Assembly: GCA_002633005.1 (NCBI GenBank)
Contig: NMRA01000267.1
Span: 124,001-188,000, forward strand
Direction: 5' to 3'
DNA length: 64,000 nt
Origin: Phoronis australis
Taxonomy: Eukaryota > Animalia > Phoronida
Part shown: positions 2,800 through 41,900 of the stretch, piece by piece
Position numbering within the stretch: position 1 is the first letter of the stretch
How the letters are laid out: each line of letters begins with the position of its first letter
Position numbers and translations under genes: made by a program
Notes under the pieces: model-generated
Told to the model about the DNA's origin: nothing
Databases searched by the model: none
The model's input: the letters and a program-made list of their open reading frames with translations, nothing else

Positions 2800-5700
2800 A
2801 GGCGAGATGAGCGTAAAGTTAAGAACACAGACGTCCGGCTAATTGACTTTGGATCAGCAACGTTTGACCATGAACATCACAGCACAATAGTCTCAACAAG
2901 GCACTACAGGGCTCCAGAAGTCATATTAGGTAGGCTGCCCTGACGCTCACTTGTCTTGGTGCAACTGTTTTAAGATGACATGGCTCCATCGAAAGCTAGA
3001 TAATATGTGTGCCATTTCCCTGAAATTTGTCCGGCTTTATTTCAGACTAACCGTGAAAACCTAGATAGGGTTGAATGAAAAATAAGACTAAACCATTAGT
3101 GAACATGTTTCTTTGAACCAAAATATGTGTGAGAAGAGATTTGTTTCAGTTTTTTAACGTACAACTTGACTGCCATTGGCAATGGATCCCAGCGTCACAT
3201 TTTTATAAGGTGTGAAAATTAATCAATCACCTGCAGTGATGGGTTTTAAAAGCACGTTCTGTGTTATCAGCTAGTACTACTCTGCAGACGCGCAGCTTTG
3301 GGATGCATACCACTCTGCTTAACTACAAAGTGTTTTGCAGCAGAGAGCAGCATCATGGTAGAGGGGTTAGTTTATTCTCTGAATAAGGGGGGGATAATCA
3401 TTCAGGTGTATTCTCTCTTCTGTTTCAGAGCTTGGCTGGGCACAACCTTGTGATGTATGGAGTATTGGTTGTATTATATTTGAACTCTACACTGGTTATA
3501 CGTTATTCCAGGTAAACGATTTTGCTAGATGTGTAAAGTGACTGTGTGCTGTTTGTGTTAATTTCATAGCTTACCAAGCATACACGTTAATCGAATATTA
3601 TATTATATTATATTATATCATATTATATTGTGGGAGTGTATCATTACAATGTTAATGGGTCATTGCAGGTGTCTGTAGATGTATTCATTTAATTAATACA
3701 TTGATTAAATTAAGCATGCTTTTTATAGTCTTCCACTCTCCTGATGTTCAATTAATGTCTCATTTCTCGTGTTTGAGTTCAGTTGGTGTGCAATGCTCTC
3801 TTTGTTGTAACAATTCCGGAAATGCGGAAGAAGTTGTATCAGACATTATGTAAACAAATTTCATTTGGTGACTGTGTTTATCAGTTCCACAAGTTTGGTG
3901 GAATGCTTCTTCCATTTTGTAGAATGTAGTTTTTGATGTACATATGTACATTAACTGCAGGCCCTCAATCTCGACATAAATTATAATTACTAAAAGCGAC
4001 AGTTACTTCACATCAAACGAAAGTCTTCAGAAACTATCAGAAATAATTGTTTTATCAAAGTTATGAAATCAACTATGCAGTCATTTTATTAAATAATGTG
4101 TTTCAAAAAAGACTGCTTCCTGTCCATACTAACAAACTGGTGCTCCGTAGCATTTTAAGGTGTTTGTGGTGTTATCTTTTGAGAGAACTATTGTTTTGGT
4201 TCATGTTATGAAGTAGAACTGTCTGCTTTGGTTCTTGAACATGGTAAGTTAGTGTTCCCTAATTACACAGATAGCACCATGGATAAGATGAGTTGATTGT
4301 TGTGATGGTCACATTCACTGAAGCTAACTTGATTTATTCCAGTTTGATGGTTCAGATTTATGTTCAATCTAATTAGCCATGTGTTGAACTCTAAAACAAT
4401 TGATTTTGCTATGCTAGTTGCTTTGCACTGATAGAAGTGCCAGTGTTAAATGATTCGTACCATAGATGACAGACAACGGATTCACTGCTTGGATATGTTC
4501 TCATGAAATTCCCTAGTAAAGGCACCACTTGCTTCCTGTTCTAATCTCATCTTCCTGGATAGTGTACTCAGGCGTGGAATTCTATTTCACTGCCTAGCAG
4601 TACAAAAGAAAACATTTTGGCTTTGAAAAGCAGTCAACGTCTCCATTTAGTAGAAGTCTTGGTATTGTAAGTAATTTTGCCAGTAGTTCAGGACGTTCAG
4701 TTGCAAAATTCAACCTCTAACAACACTAATCATTGTTAGCAGACGTTCATACCGGGCCAACTCAACAGGGTTTGCCAATAAAAGATGATGTTGCGGCTTG
4801 TTTGCAAAATCACAGATCTGATCTCTTTTCCTATAATATAGAGTCCCGTGTTCAATGTTCTATAATCTCTAGGTTACCATGTGCTCCCTTTTCTGTTTCA
4901 GACTCATGACAACAAGGAACATCTAGCCATGATGGAACGCATTTTAGGTTCCCTCCCCTACGCCATGGTCAGAAAATCAAAGTAAGGTCCACTAAAACAA
5001 TGAAGAGTTTACTTTCCATGTCTAGGAAATGCAAAATGAAGTGAATACTTCTTCCAAATCTTTATTAAATGTGGCAAGTTTATTTGTATGAAGGTGAGAA
5101 CAGGTGACGGCGACTTTCAGACATACCCGAATACAACTGTGTCCCCTAGTGGCAATTTTTTTCCATTTTCCTCAGTATCTTGATAGTTCCTTGACAGATT
5201 GTTATGAAATTCAGCAGATAATCAATGACAGCTTCCCATTTTTATGTAGATTTGNTCACCTGCAGTGATGGGTTTTAAAAGCGCATTCTGTGTTATCAGC
5301 TAGTACTACTCTGCAGACGCACAGCTTTGGGATTCATACCACTCTGCTTAACTACAAAGTGTTTTGCAGCAGAGAGCAGCATCATGGTAGAGGGGGTTAG
5401 TTTATTCTCTGAATAAGGGGGGATAATCATTCAGGTGTATTTCTTCTGTTTCAGAGCTCGGCTGGGCACAACCTTGTGATGTATGGAGTATTGGTTGTAT
5501 TATATTTGAACTCTACACTGGTTATACGTTATTCCAGGTAAACGATTTTGCTAGATGTGCAAAGTGACTGTGTGCTATTTGTGTTAATTTCATAGCTTAT
5601 CAACCATACACGTTAATCGAATATTATATTATATTATATTATATTATATTATATTATATTATATTATATTGTGGGAGTGTATCATTACAATGTTAATGGG

Positions 5701-8700
5701 TCATTGCAGGTGTCTGTAGATGTATTCATTTAATTAATACATTGATTAAATTAAGCATGCTTTTTATAGTCTTCCACTCTCCTGATGTTCAATTAATGTC
5801 TCATTTGTCGTGTTTGAGTTCAGTTTGTGTGCAATGCTCTTTTTGTTGTAACAATTCCGTAAAGTTGTAACAGACATTATGTAAACAAATTTCATTTGGT
5901 GACTGTGTTTATCAGTTCCCCAAGTTTGGTGGAATACTTCTTCCATTCTGTAGAAATGTAGTTTTTGATGTACATCTGTACATTAACTGCAGGCCCTCAA
6001 TCTCGACATAAATTATAATTATTAAAAGTGGCAGTTACTTCACAACAAACAAAAATCTTTAGAAACTAGCAGAAATAATTGTATAATCAAAGTTATGAAA
6101 TCAACTATGCAGTCATTTTATGAAATAATGTGTTTCAAAAAAGACTGCTTCCTGTCCATACTAACAAACTGGTAGGTGTTTGTGGTGTTATCTTTTGAGA
6201 GAACTATTGTTTTGGTTCATGTTATGAAGTAGAACTGTCTGCTTTGGTTCTTGAACATGGTAAGTTAGTGTTCCCTAATTACACAGATAGCACCATGGAT
6301 AAGATGAGTTAATTGATTGTTGTGATGGTCACATTCACTGAAGCTAACTTGATTTATTCCAGTTTGATGGTTCAGATTTATGTTCAATCTAATTAGCCAT
6401 GTGTTGAACTCTAAAACAATTGATTTTGCTATGCTAGTTGCTTTGCACTGATAGAAGTGCCAGTGTTAAATGATTCGTACCATAGATGACAGACAACGGA
6501 TTCACTGCTTGGATATGTTCTCATGAAATTCCCTAGTAAAGGCACCACTTGCTTCCTGTTCTAATCTCATCTTCCTGGATAGTGTACTCAGGCGTGGAAT
6601 TCTATTTCACTGCCTAGCAGTACAAAAGAAAACATTTTGGCTTTGAAAAGCAGTCAACGTCTCCATTTAGTAGAAGTCTTGGTATTGTAAGTAATTTTGC
6701 CAGTAGTTCAGGACGTTCAGTTGCAAAATTCAACCTCTAACAACACTAATCATTGTTAGCAGACGTTCATACCGGGCCAACTCAACAGGGTTTGCCAATA
6801 AAAGATGATGTTGCGGCTTGTTTGCAAAATCACAGATCTGATCTCTTTTCCTATAATATAGAGTCCCGTGTTCAATGTTCTATAATCTCTAGGTTACCAT
6901 GTGCTCCCTTTTCTGTTTCAGACTCATGACAACAAGGAACATCTAGCCATGATGGAACGCATTTTAGGTTCCCTCCCCTACGCCATGGTCAGAAAATCAA
7001 AGTAAGGTCCACTAAAACAATGAAGAGTTTACTTTCCATGTCTAGGAAATGCAAAATGAAGTGAATACTTCTTCCAAATCTTTATTAAATGTGGCAAGTT
7101 TATTTGTATGAAGGTGAGAACAGGTGACGGCGACTTTCAGACATACCCGAATACAACTGTGTCCCCTAGTGGCAATTTTTTTCCATTTTCCTCAGTATCT
7201 TGATAGTTCCTTGACAGATTGTTATGAAATTCAGCAGATAATCAATGACAGCTTCCCATTTTTATGTAGATTTGAGATAGTACGCCTCCTAATGACCATT
7301 TGTATTAAGTTTGTTTCTGTGGTGGCGTTCATCTCTGTCGGCCAAACGACTTACAATCTTTATGAAAATTGATTTTTGGTTAGTTCTAGAGAATTGTGAC
7401 ATATAGATGGCGCTTGCTATTCGCCCTAGCCGCCCTGTCTCTGTTCTTTCAGGTTACGATCATTCGTAGTTTGCTGTAACCAATAAACAGTGAAGAAATA
7501 CTTGCGAGTTATTTTCTAAGTTCTGACTGGTGTGGCGTCACCTAGTGGAAGTTTTGCTTCCCCAGCTGTTTCTCCTAAACCCCTGTAGGATGTTTATGAA
7601 ATTTGGCAAGTGTATTCTTATGAACGTGACAACGCATGACGATGACTTTTGGGCACATCTGACTTACATTTTGCCCCGTAGTGGCATTCATAGTCTTTTT
7701 ACGTTCTTAGAAGCTGTGTTCTTATTGCTGACTTGCTATGCATCCCCGGCAATTTTAAGTTAACTAGCATTGCTCCCTCTTGTGGGAATGTTAAGGATTG
7801 TGATAATCCCTTGTAGACGTATGTGGTGCACATGGTGGACGCATATCAACGCTCCTCATTGTTCTTGTAATTGACGGGGTGACGCAGTAGTTTTGACATT
7901 TTGGCATACAGCACTATTACTGAAGTTAAAAGTCTTGCATCTGTCTCTGGAAGTGTTTTGTCGTCAAGAGACAATTCAACTCACACTATCTCTAGCTCTG
8001 GCCCAAACTTGCNCTGTTGATCATCCTTGTGCTTTTGTTTTTGCATAGTAATGGTTCAGCTTATAATTTTCATTTGTCTCAAATTACCTGTTTGTAATCG
8101 ACTGATATTGGTCAAAGTGACGTACAGCATATATTTTAAAGAACTTTCAACACAGATATCTTTATTTTATTGATTTCTTCCTGGGCTTAGTGAAGTTCAT
8201 TAATCAATCCAGTTTTACTGCCCCTGACTTCAGATGGTGGTGATTCTGATGTGACCTACTCGTGACTGTTTGTGGCTTGAAGGTTGCACAATAAACCTTA
8301 TTCACGCAGTAACCATTTTAATAAGTGAGCCTCTTTTTAGGTTTAAAATACAATGCATTCGAGACATGAATAGAATGAGTGTGCACATGATTAGTGTTAG
8401 TGGTCGAGTGCTTTTGTGGAGATAACTTCATGTTTGATAAATTTTAGCATTTACTAATTTTCTGGAAATGTTGGAGAAAAAATTATCAATGTGTTCGATG
8501 TTATAGATTTTTTAGAAATTAGTATTTTGGTGGCTGTTTTGGCCCTGTTTCAGATCGTAATTTCGCAACTTCGCAAAAGCTTTCGAAATGGAAAACCTAC
8601 CAGAAGTCTTAAAAAGCCTCATTAATTTTAATGTAGGTGGAGTAGTGAACCCTGCCTTTTGGATAATTTGAGTAGTTTCATGGTTTTGATGAACATATGC

Positions 8701-11700
8701 CAATTAAAGTAGGCAACAATTCTAGGTCTTCATTTATTAAAAGGTGGTCTTCTGCTTTTGTCTGGCTCTGGTATATGCAGTACGCGCTGAAAGTATTCAG
8801 ACAAAATGTCCCCGAATTCCCTATCATGGCCACTCGACAGAAGATGATTTCATCATCAGACCAAGAATGAAGTTGTATTAACAGGGAAGTTAGTAACGTG
8901 GCTAAGCCATTCTGTAGAACTTTACAATTTTGCCACAATAATAGTCCTTTTTGTTGTTATAGCAGAATTAGCCATCACAGCTAGGAAACTGTATTGTGTC
9001 TGATAACTTTTTGTCATGTGTTGCATATGCTCTAATTTTGCATGTCTATACGGACGTCTTATTCCTTCAAATGTTGTATTTTAAATACAGTGCATTATTT
9101 GTGAATCTCTCGACTAGACTGAAACGAGCCAATGGTTTGTGATTGTTTCTTAATGTGTTACACTTATGATGTGTGCAAGAGAGTAGACAGAATGGGGCAC
9201 ATGCTAGCATTTACTGAGCAGTAATTAAAGGTGTCTTCTGTGGAAAACAACTTTTGACTTGGACCTCTTTTAAGTGGTGTCAATGTGTTTTTCTCTCAGA
9301 TGAGGAATGATGTCGGGGCAGTGGACAAATTGACAGTTTATTAGCACTTGAGACCATACTCTACACATAAAAGAACCCCTCCTGTTGATAGGTTTGCTTT
9401 TTAAGCCTGGTCTTAAGCAGTAATGAACTACGTTGTCTTACTGAGCTCCGAAATCTTCTCATCTGAGTAAGGAACCAGTTTAGACCTGTTTAGACCAGTT
9501 TTGTTATGGCAAGTGGTCTAAATGAAAAATTAATTTTTCGACAAAATGCGGGATTGTTGCTGCATTAAGTAGATAAATATTTGTCAACATTTTTTCTCCT
9601 TGTGTGAAAGGCTCTGTTTTGGGTGTTTGTGTGTTGGTGCGTGCGTGCTTGACTACTTCTCTCTTTCTACTTGTTGTTTTTTATTTTTCTATGCAAGATT
9701 GGGCTACTATTTTCATGGCCGGTTAGAGTGGGACCCCGACACTAGTGCTGCTCGCTACGTCCGGGAGCAGTGCAAGCCATTACATGTGAGTACGCGCAAA
9801 CGTGCGCTCCGACGTACACGCTGCATGTATTAGTACTTGCCAGCCATCTGGTGTTCAGGATGGACAACACGAGAGGTGGCCCAAGCAATGGGTGCATAAC
9901 ATGCTTGGCTGTGTTCTGGCTGAACATTGCCCATTTGCAGAGTTTTTGGATTTTGGGGTAATCCACCTTGGAAGTTGGTGAATAGGGACTACAAGTCGCT
10001 TGAATCAACTTACTTGAAATAGAAACATTACGCTTAACCATATTTCAAGAAATGGAGTATGCACTTTTGACAAGTTTTGAAAAATAAAGAAAATAACTCT
10101 GCAACATGAGCCATGTATATTCAACTCCCAACTTTTTTTGGAAAATATCAAAATTCTGTGAATGGATATGTATCCTTGTCTAATCACATGGCAAGTGTGG
10201 ATTTCTCTGTTTGTCTTGGGCTAGCTAAGTGTTGTCTGTTCTGGCCTGTCGGCCCCATCTTCGTAGCTTAGAACAAACAGTGCATGCCCGTTTGTTGACG
10301 TTGCCAATTTGTTTTTTTGAAGAAAAACCAAGTACTTCTATAAGAGCAAGTTGGACTGGGACGAACATAGCAAAGAAGGAAAATACGTGCGAGATAATTG
10401 CAAGCCTTTACATGTACGTATAGCTTTCTCACGCACTGTATTACTTTTCCTGCCTCTGTCTGCAATCAAAGTAGGTATCGTGGACAAACTTCTTATCTCA
10501 GTCTTATAAAGCATGGTGAAGATTTCACGTGGGAGAGTGACGCGCTGCCGCCTGGGTATTGACAGACCAGTTGTTACTCCAGTATTTAAGGAGACATATT
10601 TCAGTTAAGTCAGTTTTCCTCCCTCACTAACCGCAATGTTTTCCATCAGCAGTGTCGTTTTGTCCTTCTGATTAACAGTTGACTTGATGTTTGGAAGGTA
10701 ACTATTTGAGTCAAAGATGGCGTTCAGCACATTAGTATTAATGAGGGTATTCCGCGTACCACTCGCTAAGAAGCTCCGTGTCCACCGAGGCGGCGCTTGT
10801 GGAAGTTACTGATGTTTCGAGGTCTTCTACAGGTGGAGTCTGACCATGTTACATCACATCACACTTTTTCTTGCTCGTGCACGTCTGCTTTCTGTGTGCT
10901 GTCCTGAGTCGTCAAAATCTCTTCACTTATTTAGTAATCATTCCAAAAAGGTGAAATTAAATTTTGTCACAAATTCCTTCACAGAAATAAAGGTTAAGAA
11001 AAATTTAATCTGTTACTGCCATGTTTGTTTGTACTGTGAAGATGTCATCATAAAACAACATTTGGTGGACGTTATTAATGTTTGTTACAAAGTAATCAAA
11101 CTTTTGAAAATGGAAAAATTTCAATTTTGGCAATTTTTTTTTTTTTTCGAAATAAGTGGAGAATTAACATATGTCATGTGTGCATAATTCGCTCGATCAG
11201 TATTCTGTGAAGTAACGCTTGTTGAGTGTAGGTCTATCACTAACATGTTGTGCACAAGATGTTTCAGGTATTCTGTTAGTATAGAGCGCAGATGTCGAGT
11301 TTGGCTTCTATCTACATCACCCAGTATAACTGCGCTTCGACCAACCTTCTGTTCAGTCACTGGTTATCTGCCAATGAATTATAAAACCGATGTTTTTATG
11401 ATATCAAAGAACTTGTTTAAGTCTATTTGGATAGGCTTGAGTAAATTCGTATGTACAATAAGATCACTGAAACCAAAGCTTAAAGCATCGTATTTAAATA
11501 AAATATACCTAATTTGATCACTGTATTTTCATTCCTTACATGAGGCATTGGTCTGCATTTTAGTTGAATTTATTCTTCAGACATTAATTTGTTGTGTGAT
11601 TGTGCTACATTAGGCATTAACTCAAAGCTCAAAACATTGTAGAATCCAAAGATCTTCACCACCGTAAGTGTCTAATTTATTATTTCACTTGGAAATATTT

Positions 11701-11958
11701 ATCCCCTTGTTGATGTGTTATGTAACATGGCTCCCATTGTCTTTACAGCGCTACATGTTGGGTAGTGGTTCCGAGCACCAACTGTTGTTTGACCTGATCC
11801 TCAGAATGCTGGAGTACCAGCCAGGAGACAGGATCTCGTTGCGGGAGTCGCTTGAGCACGGCTTCTTCGACCCACTCAAACGCACTGCCACTGCCTCCAA
11901 CCAGTTGGAAGACACCAAGAACGACCTACGTGAGCGTTCTCATAGTCTAAGCAGATAA
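2800..11958 (+). CDS. CLK2: CDC-like (LAMMER) dual-specificity kinase CLK/Doa, 3' part (5' exons lie upstream of the window)
   Basis: GT-AG exons 2800-2929 ([43 protein letters not shown]), 3429-3511 ([28 protein letters not shown]), 4902-4981 ([26 protein letters not shown]), 9698-9785 or 10323-10413, and 11749-11958 (RYMLG...[28 protein letters not shown]...RERSHSLSR*). Phases join in frame. DFG, APE and the diagnostic [11 protein letters not shown] motif are present. The paralog number is nominal; probably the single invertebrate CLK. Confidence 0.96.
5256..7274 (+). repeat. Second copy of 3227-5254, including duplicate CLK exons 5455-5537 and 6922-7001; probable haplotype/assembly duplication
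   Basis: Direct repeat abutting the single N at 5255. The first half differs by SNPs and small indels; the second half is essentially identical. Confidence 0.9.
5620..5670. repeat. (ATATT)n microsatellite; shorter allele at about 3594-3629
   Basis: Pentanucleotide run whose length differs between the two duplicated copies. Confidence 0.85.
7120..7790. repeat. Interspersed repeat with internal CCCTAGTGGC-type subunits; related inverted copy at about 53600-54050
   Basis: 7560-7690 aligns to the reverse complement of about 53860-53990 (CAGCTGT.TCTCCTAAACCCC...TTTGGCA.GTGT...TAGTGGCA). Confidence 0.7.
8870..9020 (+). repeat. Interspersed repeat fragment shared with about 41175-41320 and about 43670-43810
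   Basis: Shared TTAACAGG.AAG.TAGTAA.GTGGCTAAGCCATTC ... AGAATTAG block. Confidence 0.65.
9698..9785 (+). CDS. CLK2: CLK alternative exon A (88 nt), post-LAMMER insert
   Basis: Pyrimidine tract plus AAG acceptor and GTGAGT donor; phase 2 to phase 0; encodes [29 protein letters not shown]. Confidence 0.9.
10323..10413 (+). CDS. CLK2: CLK alternative exon B (91 nt), homologous to exon A
   Basis: TTGAC branch-like site (A at 10298), T-tract plus AAG acceptor, GTACGT donor; phase 2 to phase 0; encodes [30 protein letters not shown]. Not in the ORF track. Confidence 0.88.
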
Positions 11959-13326
11959 AGCGCAAGTTGAAATGAAAGCTTTTCTCACTAGACTATAGAC
12001 TTTTCACTGGATTTACCATTGGTCAGATTCTCTGCAGAGTTGCACAGTTTTGATCAAGTGTTGGAAGAGACGAAACATCTAAATAACTTCCAAATTCGAT
12101 GGGGTTTTATTTTGTCCCTACTGTTATTTAGTCCGGGGAATTACTTTTTCAAGAGACAGTGCAATGCTCTTGTCCCCTGTCCTATTTTGGGTACCGCATT
12201 TATTGGTTTAAAAACTTATGTTAGCTGGGATTGGTTGTGCCATTCACCCGCTGGTTATCTGCCTGTTCACATGATAAATAGCTCCTGGTTGACTTGAGTC
12301 TCAATGCATGACTAGTGAAGCCGCATGATGTAACTGACATCGTTGACTTGTGCCCGTCCTAGCATCGTGTCGCGCTTACAGCTGCAGTTATAGGTATGCC
12401 TGTTGCCGCTTACTCGTAGTCATGTGTTAGAGATTAGAGTTTTATTTATACAACTAACCAGTTGCCTAACTTCACCTTGTCTTTTATAGATTACGACTAC
12501 CCGTTGTTTCAACCAAGTTCCTATAGCCAAAAGTGCTTTGACACATGCTCACGGAACGACGCGTATTTCCATTTGTCTGCTTGAACGTAGGATTGCCAGT
12601 TTTAGTTGTTGTTTAACTGATGAAATCCCGACAGCTGTCGTCACTTTAAGACATACAGCCACAGAGACTTTTTAAAACACTAATATAAGCAACCATTTCC
12701 TTTTTTTATCTCGAGATGTTTTTCAATATCAAGAAGATTGTAGTAATTTGGTTGTGCGAGTCAATACTCTGGACATCATTTTCGGACATTGCATCTTTAA
12801 AATTCTACCGGCATTGGTTTTACAATTGTCATTTATTGTTTTGATATGAAACTACTGCTGTTCGTAATGTATCCAGTGATAAAACTTCTGTAGAAAATGG
12901 TACCAGTTCAAGTTTTTGGTGAATGTAGAGAGATGTTGAGTGGATAGTTGCATTGTTGATATCATCAGTGTCATCCTCATTGTAAGAAACATTGTTTTTG
13001 TTGTTTTATTACTCTTTTAGGTTATTACATTAGTCACTGTCCTGTTTCAGCATTTCTAGTGTAGTTTACAGTGAAGATAATCTTGTTTGATTAATGGCAT
13101 GTCGTAAATATGAGCAATAATCAGCGAGTTTAGACTGTGACGACAGAGAGAAACCACGGATTAATAGATTAGCAGAATATTTCTCATGTGCAATGTTTTT
13201 CAGTTTGAGAATAGAATTATTACTCGAGCAGGTGTTTCATTCACTTCTCAACTTTTGTGCAAAATAAGTAAGCAGAATATGCATGCCGAACGATTCTTTT
13301 TTGACTTTCAGATTTGCTTTGATTAA

Positions 13327-13899: not shown

Positions 13900-15799
13900 C
13901 AGTAACTGTATGGCGTTGCCTGTGTTTATTTAAAGACAGGTGTTACCATTGAACGTCTGAAATAGCATGTTTTGTGGTGAGAATGAACATGCTGTAACTT
14001 GCTTTGCTAGTAAATATACTCTTTTTATTAGCCATTATGACAGGTGTTTTGTCTTTCATATGTTACTTAGTCTAAATCGCATGCTCTCACTTGCAACTAG
14101 ACTTTAAAAAATGCTTACAAAAACTACACTTTTATTAGGAGCATAGACAATAAAATTACTCAAGGCTCCTCTCAGAAATTGACTAATCAGGTATGCCTCT
14201 ATGATAAAACTCGTTTCAGTCAAGGATGTATAGGTGGAATTTCCGCTTAACTGGGACAAAGGTCGCTGTACCGTTAGTTGTTTGGGTTGGTATAAATTGG
14301 ATTTCATGTTACTACACTAAACTCTTGATCCAGTCTGATGACTAAACTGATGCAAGTTTTATGAAGGTTAACTTTCGATTGATGCGCCTCATTTTTTATC
14401 ATTTAGCTTTTTATCTTTTTTGGGGGGGGCAGGTTTTACCAGTTTACATTGGGTGCACCTCGAAATACGATGCATGATGCTGTTCCAACAAAAATAATGC
14501 CCCTATGATCATCATGCCACTAATAACGTGACACAGCTGCAAACCAAAGTTAGACCTGCTCTGCGCATGAGTTTTGTTGCTTGCGTTTCCTTCTCTGGTA
14601 TACAACCACTAATTACTCCCTGCATGCGTAGAACGATGGGAAACTTGAATGTTAGGAAAGTGTAGTGGCCCTGACTTACTTCAAGGTATATTGAGCGCTG
14701 TTTAGGACTTATGCCTTGGAATATCCCTTTTCCCACAATATGAGTGTCGAAAGTTTTGGTTTAATTTTGCGCGGTTAACAAAAACCGTGTTTCAAAATGG
14801 ACAAGTCGACACGTCTTGTTTTGTGATCGTAATCATGGAGCTCTTGGGTGTTGTTTTGATGATTATAACACTCGATTTTTATATTCTTTTGAAGTTGAGT
14901 TTTGCCCTGTTCTGTGGGCGAGAAAACGAAAATTGAATTGGATCACTCTCGTAAAATCGTTATTCCTTAACGTGATGGGGGTATTCCATTTTCGTTACCA
15001 ACACGACGTCACAGGAAGTGCGTACATGCTCCATTTTTGAATTTTCAATGTTTGTGTTCGATATTACACCCTGTTAATAAGAATTCGATTTTCATTTTTA
15101 TTCTGCTGAAACGGGGCAAAATGCAATTTTCACTTTGCCAATTTGACCTGCCGGGTAACGCCCAATAGAACTTCCAACAGTCCAAAGCAATCCTGTTTGA
15201 ACAAAGATTACACTGTGTAGTGCACGGGCTCATTTTGTGAACAATGACAAGTTTCGGTTTTGCTGACACGTTCAGGCTGGATTGACCTTCCATGTTCACA
15301 AAACTCACTAGCGTTCTCAGTGGCAGATCTACGTTTTCAGTAAGGGAGGGGGAGCTTTAGGATTCGCGCGAATCCGAGGCTCGTGGCGCCGAGCTGGTGG
15401 AGGTCGAGGGGTAACCCCCTCCCTTGTAAGATTTTTGTTGGTTTTTGTAGCCGATTTCGTTTTCTTGGTGACTTTTTTTTAATTTTTATTTTTGATCCTG
15501 TCCCAGGGAGGAGGGGTTTAAACCACCTGAACATTGTAAGAAAGTGGTGTTACCTGATTTCCGAGGGGCTAAAGAACTGTGGTTTACTGGAAAAGAATGA
15601 AGGTAGCCTACATGAAAAAAATAAATAAACACGTGGGAAAAATGTTTATTTTCTACGACTCGAATTGCTGCTTATCTGAACGCTCGTTTGGTTAGTGAAG
15701 GAGACTCAATCGTAACAATCATTCACAACTTAAAGTAAATAACTCTATCCCACGTTTTTGTTCAAAGACGTGCTACACGACTCTGGATAAAGCAGGCCN

Positions 15800-16784
15800 T
15801 TTTGTGGTCGTAATCATGGAGCTCTTGGGTGTTGTTTTGATGATTATAACACTCGATTTTTATATTCTTTTGAAGTTGAGTTTTGCCCTGTTCTGTGGGC
15901 GAGAAAAACCAAAACGAAAATTGAATTGGATTACTCTCGTAAAATCGTTATTCCTTACCGTGATGGGGGGATTCCATTTTCGCTACCAACACGAAGTCAC
16001 AGGAAGTGCGTACATACTCCATTTTTGAATTTCCAATGTTTGTGTTCCATATTACACCCTGTTAATAAGAGTTCGATTTTCATTTTTAGTCTGCTGAAAC
16101 GGGGAAAAATGCAATTTTCACTTGGCCAATTTGACCCGCCGGGTAGCGCCCAATAGAACTTCCAACAGTCCAAAGCAATCCCGTTTGAACGAAGATTACA
16201 CTGTGTAGTGTACGGGCCCATTTTGTGAACAATGACAGGTTTCGGTTTTGCTGACACGTTCAGGCTGGATTGACCTTCCATGTTCACAAAACTCACTAGC
16301 GTTCTCAGTGGCAGATCTACGTTTTCAGTAAGGGAGGGGGGCTTTAGGATTCGCGCGAATCCGAGGCTCGTGGCGCCGAGCTGGTGGAGGTCGAGGGGTA
16401 ACCCCCTCCCATGTAAGATTTTTGTTGGTTTTTGTAGCCGATTTCGTTTTCTTGGTGACGTTTTTTTTTAATTTTTATTTTTGATCCTGTCCCAGGGAGG
16501 AGGGTTTAAACCACCTGAACATTGTAAGAAAGTGGTGTTACCTTATTTCCGAGGGGCTAAAGAACTGTGGTTTACTGAAAAAGAATCAAGGTAGCCTACA
16601 TGAAAAAAATATACACGTGGGAAAAATGTTTATTTTCTACGACTCGATTTGCTGCTTATCTGAACGCTCGTTTGGTTAGTGAAGGAGACTCAATCGTAAC
16701 AATTATTCACAACTTATAAAGTAAATTACTCTATCCCACGTTTTTGTTCAACGACGTGCTACACGACTTTGGATAAAGCAGGTC
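15800..16784 (+). repeat. Second copy of 14819-15798; probable haplotype/assembly duplication
   Basis: About 1-kb direct repeat with scattered SNPs and indels, joined by the single N at 15799. Confidence 0.9.
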
Positions 16785-17169: not shown

Positions 17170-17975
17170 ACTGTAATATGAACGCAGGAAGCTGTCTTAT
17201 TTTATGCTTAATTATTACGCGAGTGTCTAGTCCAAGTTCGCACTTGAAAAACCCTAGATTCGTGTTACAAACAAGAACTCGAGATTTCAAGTTCAGACTC
17301 GAACTTATTATTGTATTACTAGTGGGGTCATTACGTTCAAGGTAGGATTAGACAGTGCATCTGCGTAAACCAAAAGTGTACTCGGGCACAGAATGATAGA
17401 CAGATGTGGCGTATTTAGAGGGGGCCATGGCTCCCCCTAAAATTTCTCTTACTTCATTTGGCAGTTCGGTCGTGCGAATGTCTGACGGGCAAAATCCTGG
17501 ACAATACTCTGCCACGGCACCCTAACTCAAAATTCTAGATCCGCCCCTGGACAGTAGTTACCTTAAGTCTGCATAAAGTACAATGGAAAATGTAAAAAAT
17601 AATCTAGATTTCTAGTACTAAGATTAGACCGAGGACCCGCCATCTTTTTACTTGAAATCGAACTCGAATTTTATTTTTGACATATTATGTTTTACTTAAG
17701 AATGAACTCAAGGCATATTGTCTATTGTTATGTGCTCGATTGTAATATGGTTCGCTTGGATGAATGTGCAATCCCTCTGTGCACTTGATGACCCCAGCAT
17801 CACAACTATAAGTTTGAATTTGAACTCAAAACCGTGAGTGTTTATTTGAAATCTCGAGTTTTTTGCTCAAGTGGTCACCAAGTGCGAACTTGGGTTAGAC
17901 ATTCGTCTCCGTAAACCATGATATTGTCGAGTGAATAATGATAGAAACTTATCTCGAGTTCGTATTAAAGTAGAA
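17170..17975. mobile_element. Degenerate fold-back (MITE-like) element with a small nested MITE at about 17405-17549
   Basis: Inverted arms GTGTCTAGTCCAAGTTCGCACTTG / CAAGTGCGAACTTGGGTTAGACAT, AACTCGAGATTTCAA / TTGAAATCTCGAGTT and TGGGGTCAT / ATGACCCCA. Inner element GTGGCGTATTTAGA...TCTAGATCCGCCCCTG. Confidence 0.7.
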
Positions 17976-18593
17976 TGGAAAATATCAAAAATAATTTGGA
18001 TTTCGAGACCGGAGATCAGACCTGGCCACAGAAATGCAAAGGTTAAACATAGAAAATTTACTTAGTTCTGTTTATTGACAAAAATTATGTAATGTTGAAC
18101 AAGCGTCGTTTGACGATATGTTTTGTGTTAACTGGTTTGCTTTGAAATTCTTTGAGTAGGGAGACTTAAACGAGCATGGAATGGAATAATTTCACGCAAG
18201 CCTCAGCACAGGCCTAGTCAGAATTCATTACGATTAACGGTTTAAGTTGCTGGATCCTAGTTTAGCTAAAATTCAAATTAAACGGAAATGTGTATGTTAT
18301 ACATCGAAACAAACGGTGTTCTTTGGGCTGGGTACAAAAAGAGTGCCTCATTTCCTTGCATGTTGTATAATTAATGACCAATTGTGGATGAGTTTCTTTT
18401 CCGAGGACCCCGATTAAATTTTCCACGATTATTGTAAAAGAATGCAAGAACACGCGGCTTTGGTGATTTTTTGTACCCTGATCAAATATTATTCGTCACA
18501 CTGAAAATTCGATCAGTCATGTTCGCCAAATTCAAGCCCGTCAACTACTTCTTTCACTTTCTGAACATTTACGTATTAATTAATAATCCACAG

Positions 18594-18760
18594 ATCAAAG
18601 AAGAATAAAGCGAATCTCGGAGCAGCTAATCCAAGCCTTCCCACAATTCTCCATGTCCACTATAATGAAGGTCGTGGAAGAGGAACAAACCGCTAACGGT
18701 GCCGCTGATAAACTGCTCACAATGGACGAGGGTGCAGCTGTGTGCAATGGTGGAACATAA
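18594..18760 (+). CDS. Putative terminal exon encoding a CUE-like ubiquitin-binding domain; upstream exons unidentified
   Basis: CAG acceptor, phase 1: QRRIKRISEQLIQAFPQFSMSTIMKVVEEEQTANGAADKLLTMDEGAAVCNGGT*. FP ... LL spacing is typical of CUE domains; ATTAAA at 18841. Confidence 0.55.
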
Positions 18761-29200: not shown

Positions 29201-30738
29201 TTGGCCGTGAAGATTGTCTCGTGTCTGAATAATAGTTAGAGTCTTGGGCTCGTGCAAATCCAATTTCGCCGAGCTCGTCCTAAACTCTTCTGGTGTGGGG
29301 ACGGGTGGAAACGGACAGCGTTGACCAAAATCATGCATTGAATGCAACACCCAACGAACGGAGTCTTCTCAGATTGTACAACTTAGGTTTCCAACAGTTA
29401 TTCAGTTCCCATTCTGTTTTAGTCGGTTGTGTCAATTTTAGTGAGAACTGCCTTGGTCTGCTACGGCCCGTGGACATGTTCAGTGAAAGTAAGAGTCGCA
29501 ATCACAGCTTTTTCGCAGGTTACTGCTCAAGTTGTAAGCACTGCCGCCATCTTCTGTAACGTCTCGAACACAGTGTGTTGTAACAAAATACAAAACAAGT
29601 AAGCAACTGACTTAATGCAATGTCTGCGGCAGCCTACAAAATGTTGCGATTGGGAGCCCGTGAATATGCATCGCTTAGGAAAGTGTTGAAGGAATTTGTC
29701 CAACCTTTTTATTGCCAAACTTTTTATTGCCAAAGTCAATGTCAGATCATTTTTATTTTTAGATTAACGCGGAATCTTGAAATACTCGAAGAAAGGGCAG
29801 CTGAACTTGAAAATTCTCTACAGGAAATGAAGAACACGGAACGGCAGCGCGCGCAACGGGAATCTCGTGTAAGAACTTCCAGCGTCCCAAGCATCACCGA
29901 CGCCCTGAAATACGACAACTTCTGGCCGGTTGATATTCACGAACTCACGGGTTACAAAAAGTTGCAAAAGAACCCATACGAGTCCGAGATTATTCGTCTC
30001 CAACAAACTGTTAAACACTTGAAAGCTCAAAAGGCCGTGGAAGACAGGAAACGAACAGACCTGGAATCAGAAATGAGTTCTATTGTTGAGGAAAACAACG
30101 AACTCCAGTATAAACTGAGAGATTACGGCCAAATGAAGAAGAGGGTTCTTAGTCTGGAAATGGAAGTTGACGAGCTCCATAAAACTGCTCGTAACAAATT
30201 CAACACAGAGATTGAGAATTCGGAAGCAATAAACAAAACAAATGTTGATCCAACGGCGGAGATGATTGCCGAGCATGACGATCCTCAAACAAACAGTGCA
30301 GAACTGCTGAAACTCAAAAACGGCGGCAGCGCTTACGGCAGCAGAGAATCGCTCAACAAAGCTGGATTACAATCGCATGATTCTCCGAACAGCCAGGCGG
30401 CTTTTCTGCCGGGCGAATCTCTGCTGAGCGAATTAAACGCGCAATACATGTTTCTTGTTCGAAAGTACGAAGCAATGTTGGAAGCGAAGCGAAACTCCAC
30501 CGTTAGCACGGCAACCGATGCCGAGCCCAAACCCACCCTTGCTTCTACCGAGAGCCAAGCGAGCACAGTTACATCTCACCGGGAATGTCAAACATCGAGG
30601 AACTTCCAGCTGGAGTACAATCTGGAGAAGAAAACCAAGTCATTCGACTATGATAAAGACCCACCCGAGTACAGGAAGATATTTAAAGAAATATTCGAAA
30701 CTCTGAGAAAAACTTCTGCCATCTGCGAAGAAAAATGA
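26238..30738 (+). CDS. CDR2: Cerebellar degeneration-related protein 2 (CDR2/CDR2L)-like coiled-coil dynein adaptor
   Basis: Exons 26238-26289 (MMEEEFISIGETIWYES, GTAAGT donor; best first-exon candidate), 28506-28618 (DLQLAAEIGKTLLERNKELE, CC1-box AAxxG), 28939-29087 (FLNHQLETLRDLNESRVKVFDEVE) and 29763-30738 (…GESLLSELNAQYMFLVRKYEAMLE…PPEYRKIFKEIFETLRKT, resembling the CDR2 C-terminal helix). Phases join in frame. Confidence 0.9.
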
Positions 30739-32962: not shown

Positions 32963-35900
32963 CTATGGCTCTGTTCCCTTGAGATACCACATGAGGCCTT
33001 TGGTGACACAGTAGTCCTACAAAGAAGCAAATCTCTATGTACTACATGATCAACCAAATTAGACCTGGACTAGACCTAACCCAAGTCTTCATTGAAAAAT
33101 GGCTACACTAAAAATTTATTTTTGGATGAACGCACAAGTCGAAATTGCAAATATAGGATATTTGTTCTAGCTGAAAGGATTTTACAAAAAACAATAATGG
33201 ACTCAGGAGATATCCCTCTATGCTCAACAGGTACTTATAGCACCATGTCTTTGATGGTTTAAACATAACTCGACAGGTACTTATAGCAAAATGTCTTTGA
33301 TGGTTTAACCATAACGAGATATAACGTAAAAGTTTTTATTTAAAAAAGTTTCAGTAAAATTGGCGGGGGAGTTAGATTGCTACTAATGTAACTTTCTTGC
33401 ACATGAAAACTTGACTTAAAAACATAGTAACGTGACAATAATAAAGACATAGTAGTAAGGATATTTTTAGAATCCTCGATCTTTCTCCTTTCAGAAAATA
33501 TATACTTCTATGGTTGACAAAGCAAAGTTCTTTCGATATTTAACTTAGAGTTGAGGTCATTTATTAAGGTCCTTGATAACCTTAAGAGGAACTGGTGCAG
33601 AATACTGACTTAGGAATAAATTGCAGAGTAAAATAAGAATGAACACAGAACTTCAAGAAAATAAACACATTGAATTGTAACCGAGACCATGGATCCTTAA
33701 TTCCATAATGCTTCACAAACGCAACACAGCGAAGGTAACTACCTTTTGCAATTTCTTGATTTCACTGTCTGTCAACGTTGTGTTGAACTCTTCTTCAATC
33801 CTCTTTTTAAAAGCAACACTCTTTATTCTGTGGTGTGTCGTGAACATTGATACCAAGAGGCCCCTGTATTGATCATATTTATCACCCAGTTTTGGCAAAA
33901 CAAAGACAGGTTCGGCTGGAGCACTTGCTGGCCACTGAAATACAAGAAACATTCTGTCAGGTCTTTGCCCTTCACAACAAAGGAATGGGTTCAACTTACA
34001 ACGAAAAAAGTTATTAGAGTTCAAAACTGACTGATTAACTTCCGCAAACATTATTTTGTGACAGAAAGATAACAACCACTTTGTGATGAACTAAGAGCTT
34101 TTTGAAAATTGGTTGGCTCAGGTAATGCTACTCACACCACACAAAACTCTATTGCGTACTGTACAGCTTCACACATGCTGTAAGATGGATTTTTCAAAGC
34201 ATGTAATTGCATATATGATAATCATGAAAACAAGCCACGTACTTTTACTGTCTGATAAACATGGACTATTTTCAATAGCATCTGGTGTAAAACCAACCTC
34301 ATTTTGAAATTGTACGTCATGTCGCATATACAAAGCATGAAACTTACAAAAAGGTACACACCACATTGAGAAACGCAATCTACCAAAACTATCAAAATAC
34401 ACAGAACTTTAAACTCAAGTGTGTTCTAAGCAGTTTCTCAAAAATTCACTTAAGGCTATGCAATACCCAAGAAAAAATTACAAATTTGGCCAACCTCAGA
34501 ACATATCTCAAAAAATGGGTTATTGGATTCCTATGAAACTTTCAAATACTATGGGTTATGCAGTTCTCCAACACGGTGTTAGGAATTGTTTTTCAACTTT
34601 GTATGAGGAGCAACCAAAAATTGAACTTCTATGATTTCATAACAATAAAAATTAGAAAACTGTAACTGTGCTTTTTTGACATTTCATCTTGAACATTTAT
34701 ATCGAATGAAATTTGGTCATGCTATCAATACTGTTGCTTTACTATCAATGTACCTTCCGTTTTGCTAAATTTTACTACAAACACATGGTCATGTGACCCA
34801 ATTTATGGCAGACTGATAGAGAGTAAAAAAATCAAATTTTACAGCCATTCTACTTTCAGAAAATATGTACTTTTACTGAGCTTTTTGATAGAGTACAGAT
34901 CTACCAATAAGGTCCTACATATTAATCTTAAAAGTTCCTATATCACATTGACAGCATTATGGCAGTTCTACTCTCTGCAATTATACGAGGTTCACAACCA
35001 CAGCTTTCTTAAGTTCAAATTTCTGAGAAAAATTCCTCATCACATTCATTAAGAACTGATCAGCAATTGACTCTCACAGCAAAAAGCAGAAATCTGTTTT
35101 CATGACCAATAAATACAAACCATTAATTCAGCACAATGCCTCTCCTACCTTGTCTCCAAGCTTTTGCCCCCCGGCCTCCATCACAGTCTGTTCTAGCAGC
35201 TTAGTAGAAACCCCACTGCCTAGCACATGCCCAGGGGGACACTCCATCAGCCGCAAGCTGAACAGTTTCTTCAGCTCACTCAGTGATAGCACCATTCGAC
35301 TGCGCAGCTTGTCGCTCATAAACTTCATTAGCTCAAGTTTCAGCTCTGTTGAGGCTGGAGCCGATGTCTCTATACTGCCATTGGACAAACAGTCCGCAGT
35401 GGACGGAGATTCAGAAACATTATTCGCTGTAGTGTCAGAGCCATCACCACCTACGCTACTGCTGCCCCCAGCACTGCCACTATGAGATCGCGATCGTTTG
35501 CACACTTTTTGATCAGACTTCTTATGAATTTTTTCAGTGTCTGTGTCACTTATGTCTGATCGGTCACTCGACTTAGTCCTTGAGCGAGACGTGGTGCGCC
35601 TCCTCTTGGGCTTATCACATTGTTTCATTTCATGGTCATCGTCACCTGAATGGATACACACATCACGTGAGTACAGTTTTCAAAAACTTAGCAGATGATT
35701 TCAGCTTAAAGTGGAATGCCAACACTTTTAATGTTACCTTTAATGAAAATACAGATCCTTGTCGAGGCCAAAAACATTACGTACCATTCTCCTGGAGTGT
35801 AAATACCAAGAAATTTCCAGCATCAGGATCTAACCTAGAATCACGTTCGATTAAACTTGTCAAGCAAGCCTTTTGTGTTGGTACACAATATATGGTTAAG

Positions 35901-38900: not shown

Positions 38901-41900
38901 AAACAGGAATTACAGGAGTTAATTGTTCATAAGCTACGCTGGTGTAGAAGAAACTATGTAGAAATAACTACTAAAAATGGGCTGGCAGAATTTGTAAACA
39001 ATGGCTTAAACCAATCAGATCATTCAGAATCTGTCACGTGATCACTTCTCTCGAACTGCAAAACTTGAGTCAAAAAATTGAACATGAAAAATATCAAAAT
39101 AAATTGAAATACATAAAAGGCAATTTAAAACACATTTGCAGTAACGAAAATAGCACTTTGTATCCCGTTTCGGTGGCACGTAGAAAATCGCACTCAAATG
39201 GTCAGGTCTAGTACTAGCAGCCAACGGCAACGGGCGTGCATGTGGGATCAAACAAAAGAATTTCATACATCACTCACATCCCACGATTCCAATCCAATGA
39301 ATAACCAGTTACAGTTGAATTTCCTTTCAGGAAGCGTTGTTATTTGTAGTGTTTCATCGTTTTCAGTCGGTCCTCCAACTCCAACTTAGTCCAAGGCGAC
39401 TCCGTAATTGTTCCTCTCTCAAAATTTACAGAACACAAGCCTTGGTTTGTGAAGACATTGACCGTTTCTTTTACCCACTTTTTCCATGAAATATTCAGTC
39501 TACTCCACACTCCACGCATTTTTGACCAAAGAATCGCACTATATGTCACCGCGATTTTATACCAAATGCCGACGTCATTGATGAACCACGCTATCCCAGG
39601 CACAGGCACTTGAATTTATCTGTTCCTAGAATGCCACTGACATCACTCACTACTAAGAAAACATGCCTCTTATATATGGTAACGAGTCATTGGCAAATTC
39701 AAGCGCCTGTGATCCGCAATTACAATTTTCGTTCCTCCGAAACATAAAGAGCAGTTTCCGCTTTTCGAGTCGTCAGCAACGCTGCGGTGAGAAACCAATT
39801 TACCACGATAATTTTATGGCAAATTCGATTTTTTCCGCGGAAATATAACAAAAATACGCGGATCGAATAAAAAAAGCAGAAATCCGCGTTTCCGCGGACA
39901 ATTCCAAGCCTTGAGAAAATAGACGTTATACAAGCCTACAGAGAACATCCGTGAATGGCTTCTCAAAATCAACAGATATGTCTTCTAACGCATACCACAA
40001 ACCCACACATATCAGGAAACCACAGGAAATGTTTCCCCAATCCATACCTATCAGTAAAGGCCTTGTCAAAGTCAAACACAAACTCCCAGCCCTGTTTCAC
40101 ACGTAGCCGGGACATCTGCTCCAGGATAGCTTTGACATCATCTGCAGGTAACTGAAATAATGATAAAAGTTTGCAAAACAACAGAAGGAACTGGATCTTC
40201 ATTTTCAATAATTTATTCTAAAGGCAGCAGATTTTACTTCTAATTATGAATTATGTTTAGAGCATAAAAACGATGCAAAGACACAGCACCCATATCTTTT
40301 TACATTTTCTTTTCAAATTTTTAACAGCATAGACTGGCATAATACTGATGTCACAAAACACATAGAAAGACATGGTTCACAATGTGTTGACCCGAAAAGA
40401 TGACAGATATACTTCTCTATAGGATTATCCACATTTTAGCTCCAGTTTTCCAATATAAACAACTGACTTAACATTCTTGCCCATTAATTGTTAATTAAGA
40501 CCCATGAAGAGAAACCCCACAGTTTTAGGTAGACGTAAATGAATATTGTGAAAATCAATGGTTTTTAAGTATATTAGACACAGAAAACCATTTGATCAAA
40601 ATCACATTTACTTTTGCACCGATGCTTGGCCCAGAAAATCAAAAGAAGATCTGTTTGGGTTCAAATTCAGTGCGTTCAACGTAGCAATGTCAACATAGCC
40701 AAAATCATAAAGTTCTCAATCTTGGCAATTGTTTAATGCCACAAACTTCTGTAGCAGACAATTACCACAAAAAGGTGAAGGCTACTTCCGTCAAGAGTTC
40801 AAGGTTCTTGACTGAAGCACATTATCTTGACCCAACAGTTATGCTAAAAAAATATTGCTGTGAAAACAATCTGGCTCCTTTCCTAAACACAAGTTGGAGT
40901 TACCTGCTTCCAAGTATTTTGTGCCTTCACTAGAACTTTTCAGAACCTACACTATGCACTGCCATGACTTAAGTAGTTCACTGGCACTTTTTCTTACTTT
41001 AACTACTGAAGTTATGTCTTTTCTCACAACAAATCTGCTTTGCCTGAACTTCCACATCTGAAAAACAAAAATTCCCATAAGGAGCACACCTCAGACAGTT
41101 CCCGCTGGTTACCAGGATGCACAGACATTTCCTGTCATCACGTGGACGCCATATTCATAACCGAGAATGAAGAGGATTTAACAGGAAAGATAGTAAAGTG
41201 GCTAAGCCATTCCATAATTAGAACTTATAGTCCTTACCAGTAATTTTTGCTGTTCACAGAATTAGTCGTCATGACTGGGAAACAGTAATTTTGTTTGATT
41301 AATATTGTCCTGCACTGTATACATAAAAACCACAGTTATGTACTAAGATTGAACATAATGCGAAAAATTGTTTAGCTGCACAAATTGTTAAATCCTTAAT
41401 AACAAGAGAAATATAAAGAAAAACACNCTAAAAATAGGCAGAATTTGTAAACAATGGCTTAGACCAATCAGATCATTCAGAATCTGTCATGTGATCACTT
41501 CTATCGAACTGCAAAATTTGAGTCACAAAATTGAGCACGAAAAAGGTCAAAATAAATTGAAATACATAAAAGGCAATTTAAAACACATTTGCAATAACGA
41601 AAATAGCACTTTGTATCCCATTTCGGCGGCACGTAGAAAATCGCACTCAGGCGGTCAGGCCTAGCACTAGAAGCCAACGGCAACGGGCGTCCATGTGGGA
41701 TCAAACAAAAGAATTTCATACATCACTCACATCCCACGACTCCAATCCACAAATAACCGGTTACGGTTGTATTTCCTTTCAGGAAGCGTTGTTATTTGTA
41801 GTGTTTCATCGTTTTGAGTCGGTCCTCCAACTCCAACATAGTCCAAGGCGACTCGGCCACGCACTCCGTAATTGTTCCTCTCTCAAAGTTTACAGAGGAC

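What the first reader, a model, noticed from the sequence alone, without database searches (positions are those of the whole stretch)
9823..10287. The intron between the alternative exons folds into a long G.U-rich hairpin that could enforce exclusivity
Seen by manual pairing, nested helices: 9855-9870 with 10229-10244 (16 contiguous bp, 4 G.U); 9874-9888 with 10211-10226; 9900-9907 with 10192-10199 (8 bp, 2 G.U); 9931-9946 with 10150-10165 (16 contiguous bp, 3 G.U); 9972-9978 with 10128-10134; apical 10013-10021 with 10041-10049; and an outer helix 9823-9830 with 10280-10287. Non-Watson-Crick positions in these helices are almost all G.U rather than A.C, as expected if the sense RNA structure is selected. 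Caveat: the strand is G/T-rich and I picked helices by eye. Inference: folding leaves about 37 nt from the exon A donor and about 11 nt to the exon B branch A (10298), roughly 50 nt in total, near the steric limit for splicing A to B. It might also act as a temperature-sensitive switch or an ADAR substrate.
Basis: partly seen in the sequence, partly recalled or inferred. Interest (0 to 1): 0.85.

Follow-up and report, generated by a model that had tools for sequence, protein, structure and literature searches.

The report
Folded intron between CLK either-or exons
RNA reads show that this animal's gene for the splicing kinase CLK uses one or the other of two duplicated exons, molluscs carry the same pair, and the intron between the two is predicted to fold into a long stem that likely assists, rather than alone enforces, a choice probably steered by an RBFOX protein site.

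Summary
The window holds the 3' half of an animal CLK2/Doa (LAMMER) kinase gene. RNA reads show exons A (9698-9785) and B (10323-10413) spliced one at a time; no A-to-B join is listed. The pair is old: molluscs and an unnamed, probably annelid, clade keep it in the same order.

The helices pair as described. The core stem (9855-10244) is stable in silico (z -5.8) and weaker on the reverse strand. Two listed helices fail: 9972/10128 is absent from the ensemble, and the outer helix vanishes once exon A is included. The core alone leaves 123 nt, not about 50, between donor and predicted branch point, so steric blocking is doubtful. Four other introns after exon A also hold 12-13 bp perfect helices, with no sequence match to the window's.

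The best-conserved element is a (U)GCAUG RBFOX-type motif upstream of exon B (4 of 4 species). Joining A and B shifts the frame to an early stop. Likely mechanism: RBFOX represses B, decay removes double inclusion, the stem assists. No thermoswitch is predicted; editing is untested. Known mechanism types, in a gene where I found no published description.

The parts
6922..7001 (+). Constitutive upstream exon encoding the [11 protein letters not shown] (LAMMER) helix; a near-identical copy at 4902-4981 lies in a probable assembly duplication
   Evidence: tblastn; RNA joints from 7001 to 9698 and to 10323; duplication
9276..9490 (+). Second predicted long hairpin, in the intron upstream of exon A
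   Evidence: -74.4 kcal/mol, z -5.7
9698..9785 (+). Alternative exon A, 88 nt (3n+1), encodes the end of the MAPK-like insert and helix alphaH region
   Evidence: RNA joints 53 in, 44 out over three runs; matches human CLK2 412-438; groups with mollusc and other A exons, support 96/91
9741..9834 (+). Predicted hairpin of exon A's 3' half with the first 50 intron bases, covering the A donor; competes with the outer helix
   Evidence: pair probability 0.86-0.92; p 0.03-0.13 against shuffles and not significant in other species
9822..9827 (+).
   Evidence: sequence; a GCAUG at +27 in L001 only, not near the donor in L005, L006, L007, L009, L010
9855..9946 (+). 5' arm of the core stem (four colinear helices)
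9972..10141 (+). Apical multi-branch region with local hairpins 9972-10011, 10013-10049, 10055-10122
10150..10244 (+). 3' arm of the core stem
10281..10286 (+). UGCAUG (RBFOX-type motif) 42 nt upstream of exon B, 12 nt upstream of the predicted branch A
   Evidence: (U)GCAUG upstream of B in 4 of 4 loci that hold B, upstream of A in 0 of 11
10292..10303 (+). Predicted branch-point block of exon B (branch A 10298); the same 12-mer follows the GCAUG in bivalve locus L007
   Evidence: only TNAY candidate in -80..-8; best local match to L007, p 0.09 on its own; branch point not mapped experimentally
10323..10413 (+). Alternative exon B, 91 nt (3n+1), one residue longer than A and more basic (8 vs 4 K/R)
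   Evidence: RNA joints 99 in, 66 out; matches human CLK2 409-438
11749..11957 (+). Downstream exon joined by both A and B; holds an internal alternative donor at 11929

Best explanation
Exons A and B are an old, mutually exclusive pair in a CLK kinase gene; the choice is likely set by an RBFOX-family protein that binds the UGCAUG beside exon B's predicted branch point and represses B, any A+B transcript would be destroyed by nonsense-mediated decay, and the predicted intron stem likely assists by looping out about 390 nt rather than by sterically blocking the A-to-B splice. Shown: either-or splicing in RNA, the frameshift and stop position, the motif in four species, the in-silico stem. Inferred: RBFOX binding, decay, folding in cells, and the stem's role. 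In this model B is the default (about 60-70% of joints); where RBFOX is abundant, B's branch point is blocked and A is joined to the last exon. The stem brings the two UGCAUG motifs and the regions next to the A donor and B acceptor close together, as an approximating structure. The product would be two kinases that differ in the insert and helix alphaH that bury the LAMMER helix and cover the SRPK-type docking groove.
For: Either-or use: upstream exon to A 18/14/21 reads, to B 39/21/39; A to last 6/12/26, B to last 20/13/33; no A-B and no skip-both joint listed at a threshold of 3 reads from 2 starts (three runs of one study, 18-19% of each read; a contig from a second study shows the A form). 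A+B gives a stop 70 nt before the last junction; 52, 49 and 73 nt in L001, L005, L007; frameshift-NMD applies to 60% of human MXE clusters against 9% for steric interference (PMC5740500, passages). (U)GCAUG at -41, -40, -8 and -68 from exon B in the window, L001, L005, L007; 0 of 11 upstream of A; per-locus chance 0.075-0.146, product 0.0009 for the three other loci. Upstream (U)GCAUG represses exons by blocking branch-point recognition in egl-15 exon 5B and calcitonin exon 4 (PMC2777236, passages). Stem recurrence: perfect Watson-Crick helix of 12-13 bp after exon A in 4 of 4 other loci tested (p 0.007-0.013), 0 of 14 control intron pieces, 3 of 159 and 3 of 110 background tiles; L007 has 8 helices of 11+ bp against 2.3 expected (p 0.02). 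Between near-identical L006 and L010, two changes inside long helices keep pairing and 17 differences fall in the loop.
Against: No binding, knockdown, tissue or structure-probing data. Exon A share does not differ between the three runs (0.29-0.43, p 0.16). The motif position varies (-8 to -68), L001 and L005 are related, and the 70-nt window was set after seeing the data. The Watson-Crick-run statistic was chosen after seeing the L001 and L005 helices; the window's own intron fails it (10 bp, p 0.14), and on a gapped stem score L005 and L009 fail while one control (the window's upstream intron) passes. L006 and L009 are cut before exon B; L009's helix lies in a short repeat and its upstream intron has a 26-bp run. 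No intron sequence is shared with other species beyond the branch block, so no covariation test was possible. Two L006/L010 changes (positions 22 and 186) break predicted pairs.
Confidence: 0.45

Rival explanations
1. Structure-assisted steric hindrance: the whole intron folds into a rod that brings exon A's donor within about 50 nt of exon B's branch point, so U1 and U2 cannot assemble across it and A is never spliced to B.
For: Folded alone, the intron closes from 9810 to 10303 with probability about 0.9; a strand-neutral alignment pairs 9796-10016 with 10085-10312, above 300 of 300 shuffles; L001's intron alone also folds almost end to end (end-to-end duplex p 0.05); no A-B joint is listed; a threshold near 50 nt is documented (PMC7969005 and PMC5740500, passages); a precedent is named in the title of Yue et al. 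2013 on Dscam exon 17 (seen in reference lists only).
Against: Outer helices drop to probability 0.00 with exon A included and cost 4-7 kcal/mol at 37 C; the core leaves 123 nt; L001 and L005 stems leave about 140 and 220 nt; L007 is 2384 nt; end-to-end pairing is not significant in the window, L005 or L007 (p 0.38, 0.35, 0.68); in the outer state the branch A is itself paired, so masking would do the work, not spacing; NMD can explain the missing A+B reads.
Confidence: 0.2
2. Two-state RNA switch: the stretch 9806-9834 pairs either with exon A (hiding the A donor, so B is used) or with B's branch region (hiding B, so A is used), with the core stem holding the partners together.
For: Both states are predicted, are mutually exclusive and lie 4-7 kcal/mol apart at 37 C; the favoured state hides A, in line with B being the commoner form; the upstream UGCAUG sits in the contested strand.
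Against: Neither pairing is clearly above shuffles (exon pairing p 0.03-0.13, branch pairing p 0.38) and neither is significant in L001, L005, L007; no docking site in flanking introns (p 0.15 and 0.65 for the window; 1 of 6 tests at p 0.04).
Confidence: 0.13
3. The stem is incidental (a decayed inverted duplication in a G/U-rich intron); exclusivity comes from proteins and NMD alone.
For: Comparable folds occur elsewhere in the window, including the upstream intron; the arms are colinear within 4 nt, as an old inverted duplication would be; G.U excess is not significant after composition (p 0.06-0.07); no sequence conservation.
Against: Helices recur after exon A in 4 of 4 other loci against 0 of 14 controls; pair-keeping changes in L006/L010; the two listed allelic differences in the 5' arm region (9854, 9892; 2 of 4 shown) fall outside the well-supported helices (centroid); no second copy in the window.
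Confidence: 0.22

Closest known systems
C. elegans egl-15 exon 5A/5B and mammalian FGFR2 IIIb/IIIc (Fox-1/RBFOX-regulated mutually exclusive exons; PMC2777236, passages)
   Same: Duplicated exon pair; (U)GCAUG next to the branch point of one exon. An approximating intronic stem between FGFR2 IIIb and IIIc is recalled from memory, not checked here.
   Different: Different gene and phylum; here the motif precedes the downstream exon; binding and partner proteins (SUP-12, ESRP) untested.
Dscam exon 17 steric hindrance combined with RNA secondary structure (Yue et al. 2013, RNA Biol 10:1822; title seen in reference lists only, text not held)
   Same: Two-exon cluster with a folded intervening intron proposed to shorten the donor-to-branch distance.
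   Different: Here the robust stem leaves 123 nt, the distance is not kept in other species, and no mutational test exists.
Distant-branch-point steric MXEs such as OGDH 4a/4b (PMC7969005, passages)
   Same: Two-exon cluster, exclusive use.
   Different: Predicted branch point is 513 nt from the donor and 25 nt from the acceptor; no long AG-free zone.
Docking-site/selector competing pairings (Dscam exon 6, 14-3-3zeta, srp; PMC6071210, passages)
   Same: Tandem duplicated exons with structured introns; a possible two-state pairing.
   Different: No docking site found in flanking introns and no conserved selector sequence.
Human CLK1-4 / Drosophila Doa kinases (PMC2667211 and PMC12795684, passages)
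   Same: Both exons encode the region matching CLK2 409-438, within the insertion that the CLK1 paper places at 400-432 (MAPK-like insert and alphaH).
   Different: The vertebrate, insect and sea star proteins retrieved each show one version; this gene and mollusc gene models have two.

Membership tests
Mutually exclusive exon pair | Tandem homologous exons of similar length in the same frame | tested here: met
   88 and 91 nt, both 3n+1, both match CLK2 409/412-438
Mutually exclusive exon pair | Transcripts carry exactly one of the two | tested here: met
   152 joints into A or B and 110 out; no A-B or skip-both joint listed at the 3-read threshold
Steric-hindrance MXE (distant branch point) | Linear donor-to-branch distance under about 50 nt | tested here: not met
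   513 nt to the only branch-like candidate in -80..-8; branch point predicted, not mapped
Structure-assisted steric MXE (Dscam exon 17 type) | Intron stem cuts the effective donor-to-branch distance below the threshold | tested here: inconclusive
   48 nt only with the outer helix, which is lost with exon A present; 123 nt with the core
Structure-assisted steric MXE (Dscam exon 17 type) | Disrupting and compensatory mutations switch double inclusion on and off | not testable with these tools
   needs a minigene
Docking-site/selector MXE | Conserved docking sequence in a flanking intron that pairs with selectors | tested here: not met
   window p 0.15 upstream, 0.65 downstream; 1 of 6 tests at p 0.04; only about 1 kb of each flank was scanned
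Frameshift/NMD-coupled MXE | Double inclusion gives a stop more than 50-55 nt before the last junction | tested here: met
   70 nt in the window; 52, 49 and 73 nt in L001, L005, L007, two of them borderline
Frameshift/NMD-coupled MXE | A+B transcript rises when NMD is blocked | not testable with these tools
   needs UPF1 depletion or translation block
RBFOX-regulated exon | Conserved (U)GCAUG in the flanking intron upstream of the repressed exon | tested here: met
   4 of 4 loci with exon B; 0 of 11 upstream of A
RBFOX-regulated exon | Binding and response to RBFOX depletion | not testable with these tools
   no CLIP or knockdown data
U2/U12 incompatibility MXE | One flanking intron is U12-type | tested here: not met
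   donors read GTAAGG, GTGAGT, GTACGT, all GT-AG U2-like; U12 consensus recalled from memory
MITE / multicopy inverted repeat | Other copies and near-perfect terminal inverted repeats | tested here: inconclusive
   no copy in 64 kb (best E 0.098); no opposite-strand reads in the intron bins, unlike repeat bins; 124 Watson-Crick of 209 aligned columns; no genome held for a copy count
Rfam RNA family | Match at the gathering score | tested here: not met
   two matches at E 2.9 and 4.4, far below threshold

The most novel reading that the evidence does not exclude
Lophotrochozoan CLK carries a Cambrian-age splicing switch in which an intron stem, kept as structure without sequence conservation, physically prevents A-to-B splicing and works with RBFOX to swap the helix alphaH module, giving one gene two kinases with different substrate docking or temperature set-points.
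Probability: 0.12. Interest if true: 0.8.

Novelty: new member of a known kind. Interest (0 to 1): 0.5.

Why it matters
CLK kinases set SR-protein phosphorylation and act as temperature sensors. [quoted passage not shown] An either-or exon pair that swaps exactly this module, kept in gastropods, bivalves, cephalopods and at least two other lineages, gives a natural within-gene comparison for that question. It also gives a compact test case (537-nt intron) to separate stem, RBFOX and decay as causes of exclusivity. The isoforms already exist as predicted database models; the mechanism types are known.

Tried and rejected
Genome-wide copy count: no genome held. Protein search with the last exon: 21 candidates, none significant. 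Run search: no RNA holder listed among indexed runs; raw-read runs were laid instead. Allelic variation in DNA runs was not obtained, so polymorphism inside the stem rests on two positions. A-to-I editing: intron depth about 1x, below the listing threshold, and only 40 of 137 difference rows were shown; untested. Conserved hairpin over the exon A donor: not significant in any of 11 A donors on the local fold (best p 0.06), while two control donors reached p 0.02-0.03. Intron sequence homology to six other post-A introns: none significant (p 0.09-0.92). Docking/selector pairing with flanking introns: not significant for the window. Thermoswitch: rejected in silico for 10-40 C. Ensemble path lengths from donor to branch (window 10 steps alone, 83 with exons; L001 31/30; L005 6/36) had no null and are not used as evidence. 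Rfam: nothing. Earlier scan findings: three look-ups returned nothing. The Fisher test used 12 controls; the true count is 14. The first G.U count lost one helix to a script error and was redone. Kinase tree did not resolve the organism's phylum. Literature searches for this exon pair listed no paper on it by title or abstract opening; subscription papers and supplements were not seen.

Full report
Gene and exons. The first 12 kb of the window hold the 3' half of a CLK2/Doa (LAMMER) kinase gene on the + strand. Two tandem exons flank the intron in question and both match the same stretch of human CLK2, residues 409/412-438. The CLK1 structure paper places this region in the insertion at 400-432 (MAPK-like insert and helix alphaH), which buries the LAMMER helix and covers the groove that SRPK1 uses for docking (PMC2667211, passages). 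The organism is probably a lophotrochozoan: a neighbouring CDR2-like protein has its best named hits in Lingula, cuttlefish and abalone at about 33-35% identity (10 of 81 hits looked up), and a kinase tree leaves it outside the mollusc and ecdysozoan groups without support for a sister.

Splicing is shown, not only predicted. Three stranded RNA runs of one study (18-19% of each read) and contigs of a second study were laid on 5300-12700. Exon A is 9698-9785 (88 nt) and exon B 10323-10413 (91 nt). Joints: upstream exon to A 18/14/21, to B 39/21/39; A to last exon 6/12/26; B to last exon 20/13/33. No A-to-B and no skip-both joint is listed; the listing needs 3 reads from 2 starts, so rare events are not excluded. 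Exon A makes up 0.29-0.43 of joints, not different between runs (p 0.16). Both exons start in phase 2 and end in phase 0, so A+B shifts the frame and stops 70 nt before the last junction, a position that would trigger nonsense-mediated decay by the usual 50-55 nt rule (established knowledge).

The pair is old. Gene models of Haliotis (three species), Ruditapes, Magallana and Octopus include both a 29-residue A form and a 30-31-residue B form. A pattern scan of metagenome contigs gave 10 loci. L001, L005 and L007 hold A then B, with introns of 261, 409 and 2384 nt; L006, L009 and L010 end 621-672 nt after A with no B seen; L002, L004 and L008 have one A-like exon followed directly by the last exon, and L003, a near copy of L002, is cut short. 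L006, L007 and L010 are bivalve-like by peptide identity to named records. Calling L001, L005 and L009 annelid is my inference; no call names them. In a 32-row exon tree the window's A groups with all other A exons and the single A-like exons (96/91), apart from all B exons; with 30 columns the tree is rough.

The stem. The intron folds at -161.9 kcal/mol (z -3.35; reverse strand z -1.99). The core 9855-10244 gives z -5.77; its ends were picked from the fold, which inflates this value. Core helices keep probability 0.82-0.99 with any flanks, and two helices of 16+ pairs occur in 0 of 500 shuffles. The four core helices lie within 4 nt of one register. In sliding scans of both strands (1270 windows each) the intron ranks among the top few loci; of 13 other top windows rescored, 9 reach z -4.1 to -8.4, one overlapping this intron and one in the intron upstream of exon A. 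The stem is real in silico and uncommon, not unique.

Is it a repeat? No second copy in the window, no Rfam match, and the intron bins collect no opposite-strand reads, unlike four repeat-like bins nearby. A genome-wide count was not possible.

Other species. The window's intron shares no significant sequence with six other post-A introns, so covariation could not be tested. A perfect Watson-Crick helix of 12-13 bp follows exon A in L001, L005, L006 and L009 (p 0.007-0.013 each), against 0 of 14 control pieces and about 2-3% of background tiles (3 of 159, 3 of 110). L007 has 8 helices of 11+ bp against 2.3 expected (p 0.02). Caveats: I chose this statistic after seeing two of the helices; the window's own G.U-rich stem fails it (10 bp, p 0.14); on a gapped stem score the window, L001 and L006 pass, L005 and L009 fail, and 1 of 14 controls passes; L009's helix is in a short repeat. 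Between L006 and L010 two substitutions in long helices keep pairing, two others break pairs, and 17 differences lie in the loop. So a structured intron after exon A probably recurs, but the evidence is moderate.

Steric model. The documented threshold is about 50 nt between donor and branch point (PMC5740500, PMC7969005, passages). The linear distance is 513 nt; the robust core leaves 123 nt; 48 nt is reached only with the fragile outer helix, in which state the branch A is itself paired. The L001 and L005 stems leave about 140 and 220 nt. End-to-end pairing is significant in none of four introns (p 0.38, 0.05, 0.35, 0.68). The model stays possible, since proteins on exon A could free the intron strand, and its precedent is the Dscam exon 17 study, of which I saw only the title.

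What is conserved. (U)GCAUG lies 41, 40, 8 and 68 nt upstream of exon B in the four loci that hold B and within 90 nt upstream of A in 0 of 11. In the window and L007 it is followed by the same 12-base block holding the predicted branch A; in L001 it overlaps the branch candidate; in L005 it sits in the pyrimidine tract. Fox-1 family proteins repress exons from such sites by blocking branch-point recognition, including a mutually exclusive exon of egl-15 (PMC2777236, passages). The second motif, 37 nt after exon A, fits the activating position but is seen near the donor only in L001.

Verdict. Most likely: RBFOX-type repression of B sets the choice, decay removes double inclusion, and the stem assists (0.45). 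Rivals: incidental stem (0.22), structure-assisted steric block (0.20), two-state RNA switch (0.13). A thermoswitch is not predicted between 10 and 40 C; editing is untested. Five searches for this exon pair listed no paper on it, and the 2025 CLK survey has no occurrence of 'mutually exclusive' in its main text; its supplements and subscription papers were not seen, and the isoforms are already in databases as predicted models. Other papers seen as passages only: PMC11802352, PMC13762713, PMC12962786, PMC6071210. This is a new member of a known kind, of real interest because the swapped module lies in a temperature-sensing splicing kinase.

Noticed in passing
window 11929 to 12490 and 18594-18760: An alternative donor inside the last kinase exon removes the RERSHSLSR tail and joins either an exon at 12490 (11/16/9 reads) or one at 18594 (42 loose-end reads in X8); the latter encodes about 54 residues with a weak helical-domain match (TTC3_9th, E 5e-4, below cutoff)..
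   Followed up: partly
window 9276-9490: A second long sense-strand hairpin in the intron upstream of exon A (-74.4 kcal/mol, z -5.7); this intron has higher RNA depth (2-5x) than the A-B intron (about 1x)..
   Followed up: partly
window 3227-5254 / 5256-7274; 14819-15796 / 15800-16782; 38949-41425 / 41407-43919: Tandem 91-96% duplications at single N bases, probably two haplotypes joined by the assembler; the first duplicates two CLK exons..
   Followed up: no
window 37959-38855: Element with about 260-bp terminal inverted repeats (82% alike) that folds on both strands; likely a non-autonomous DNA transposon..
   Followed up: no
proteins P0016, P0021, P0023, P0133, P0007, P0159, P0166, P0167: Mollusc CLK models also have two alternative versions of the next (terminal kinase) exon, combined with A or B..
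   Followed up: no
L007 about 1685-1775 and L006 about 5400-5500: Two bivalve-like loci share an intronic block after exon A that starts at a conserved pyrimidine-AG; possibly a further small or poison exon..
   Followed up: no
L002, L003, L004, L008: Unassigned animals with a single A-like 29-residue exon and no B (L003 is cut short), while coral, sea star and frog proteins show a 30-residue B-like form; the duplication may be older than lophotrochozoans..
   Followed up: partly
window 29611-30735 (+) and about 33700-47840 (-): Neighbouring genes: a CDR2-like coiled-coil protein and POLR3E/RPC5..
   Followed up: partly
window 17551-18087 (+), 46201-46737 (-), 54251-54787 (-), 45101-45637 (-), 12101-12637 (+): Other strongly folding 537-nt stretches (duplex z -4.4 to -8.4)..
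   Followed up: no
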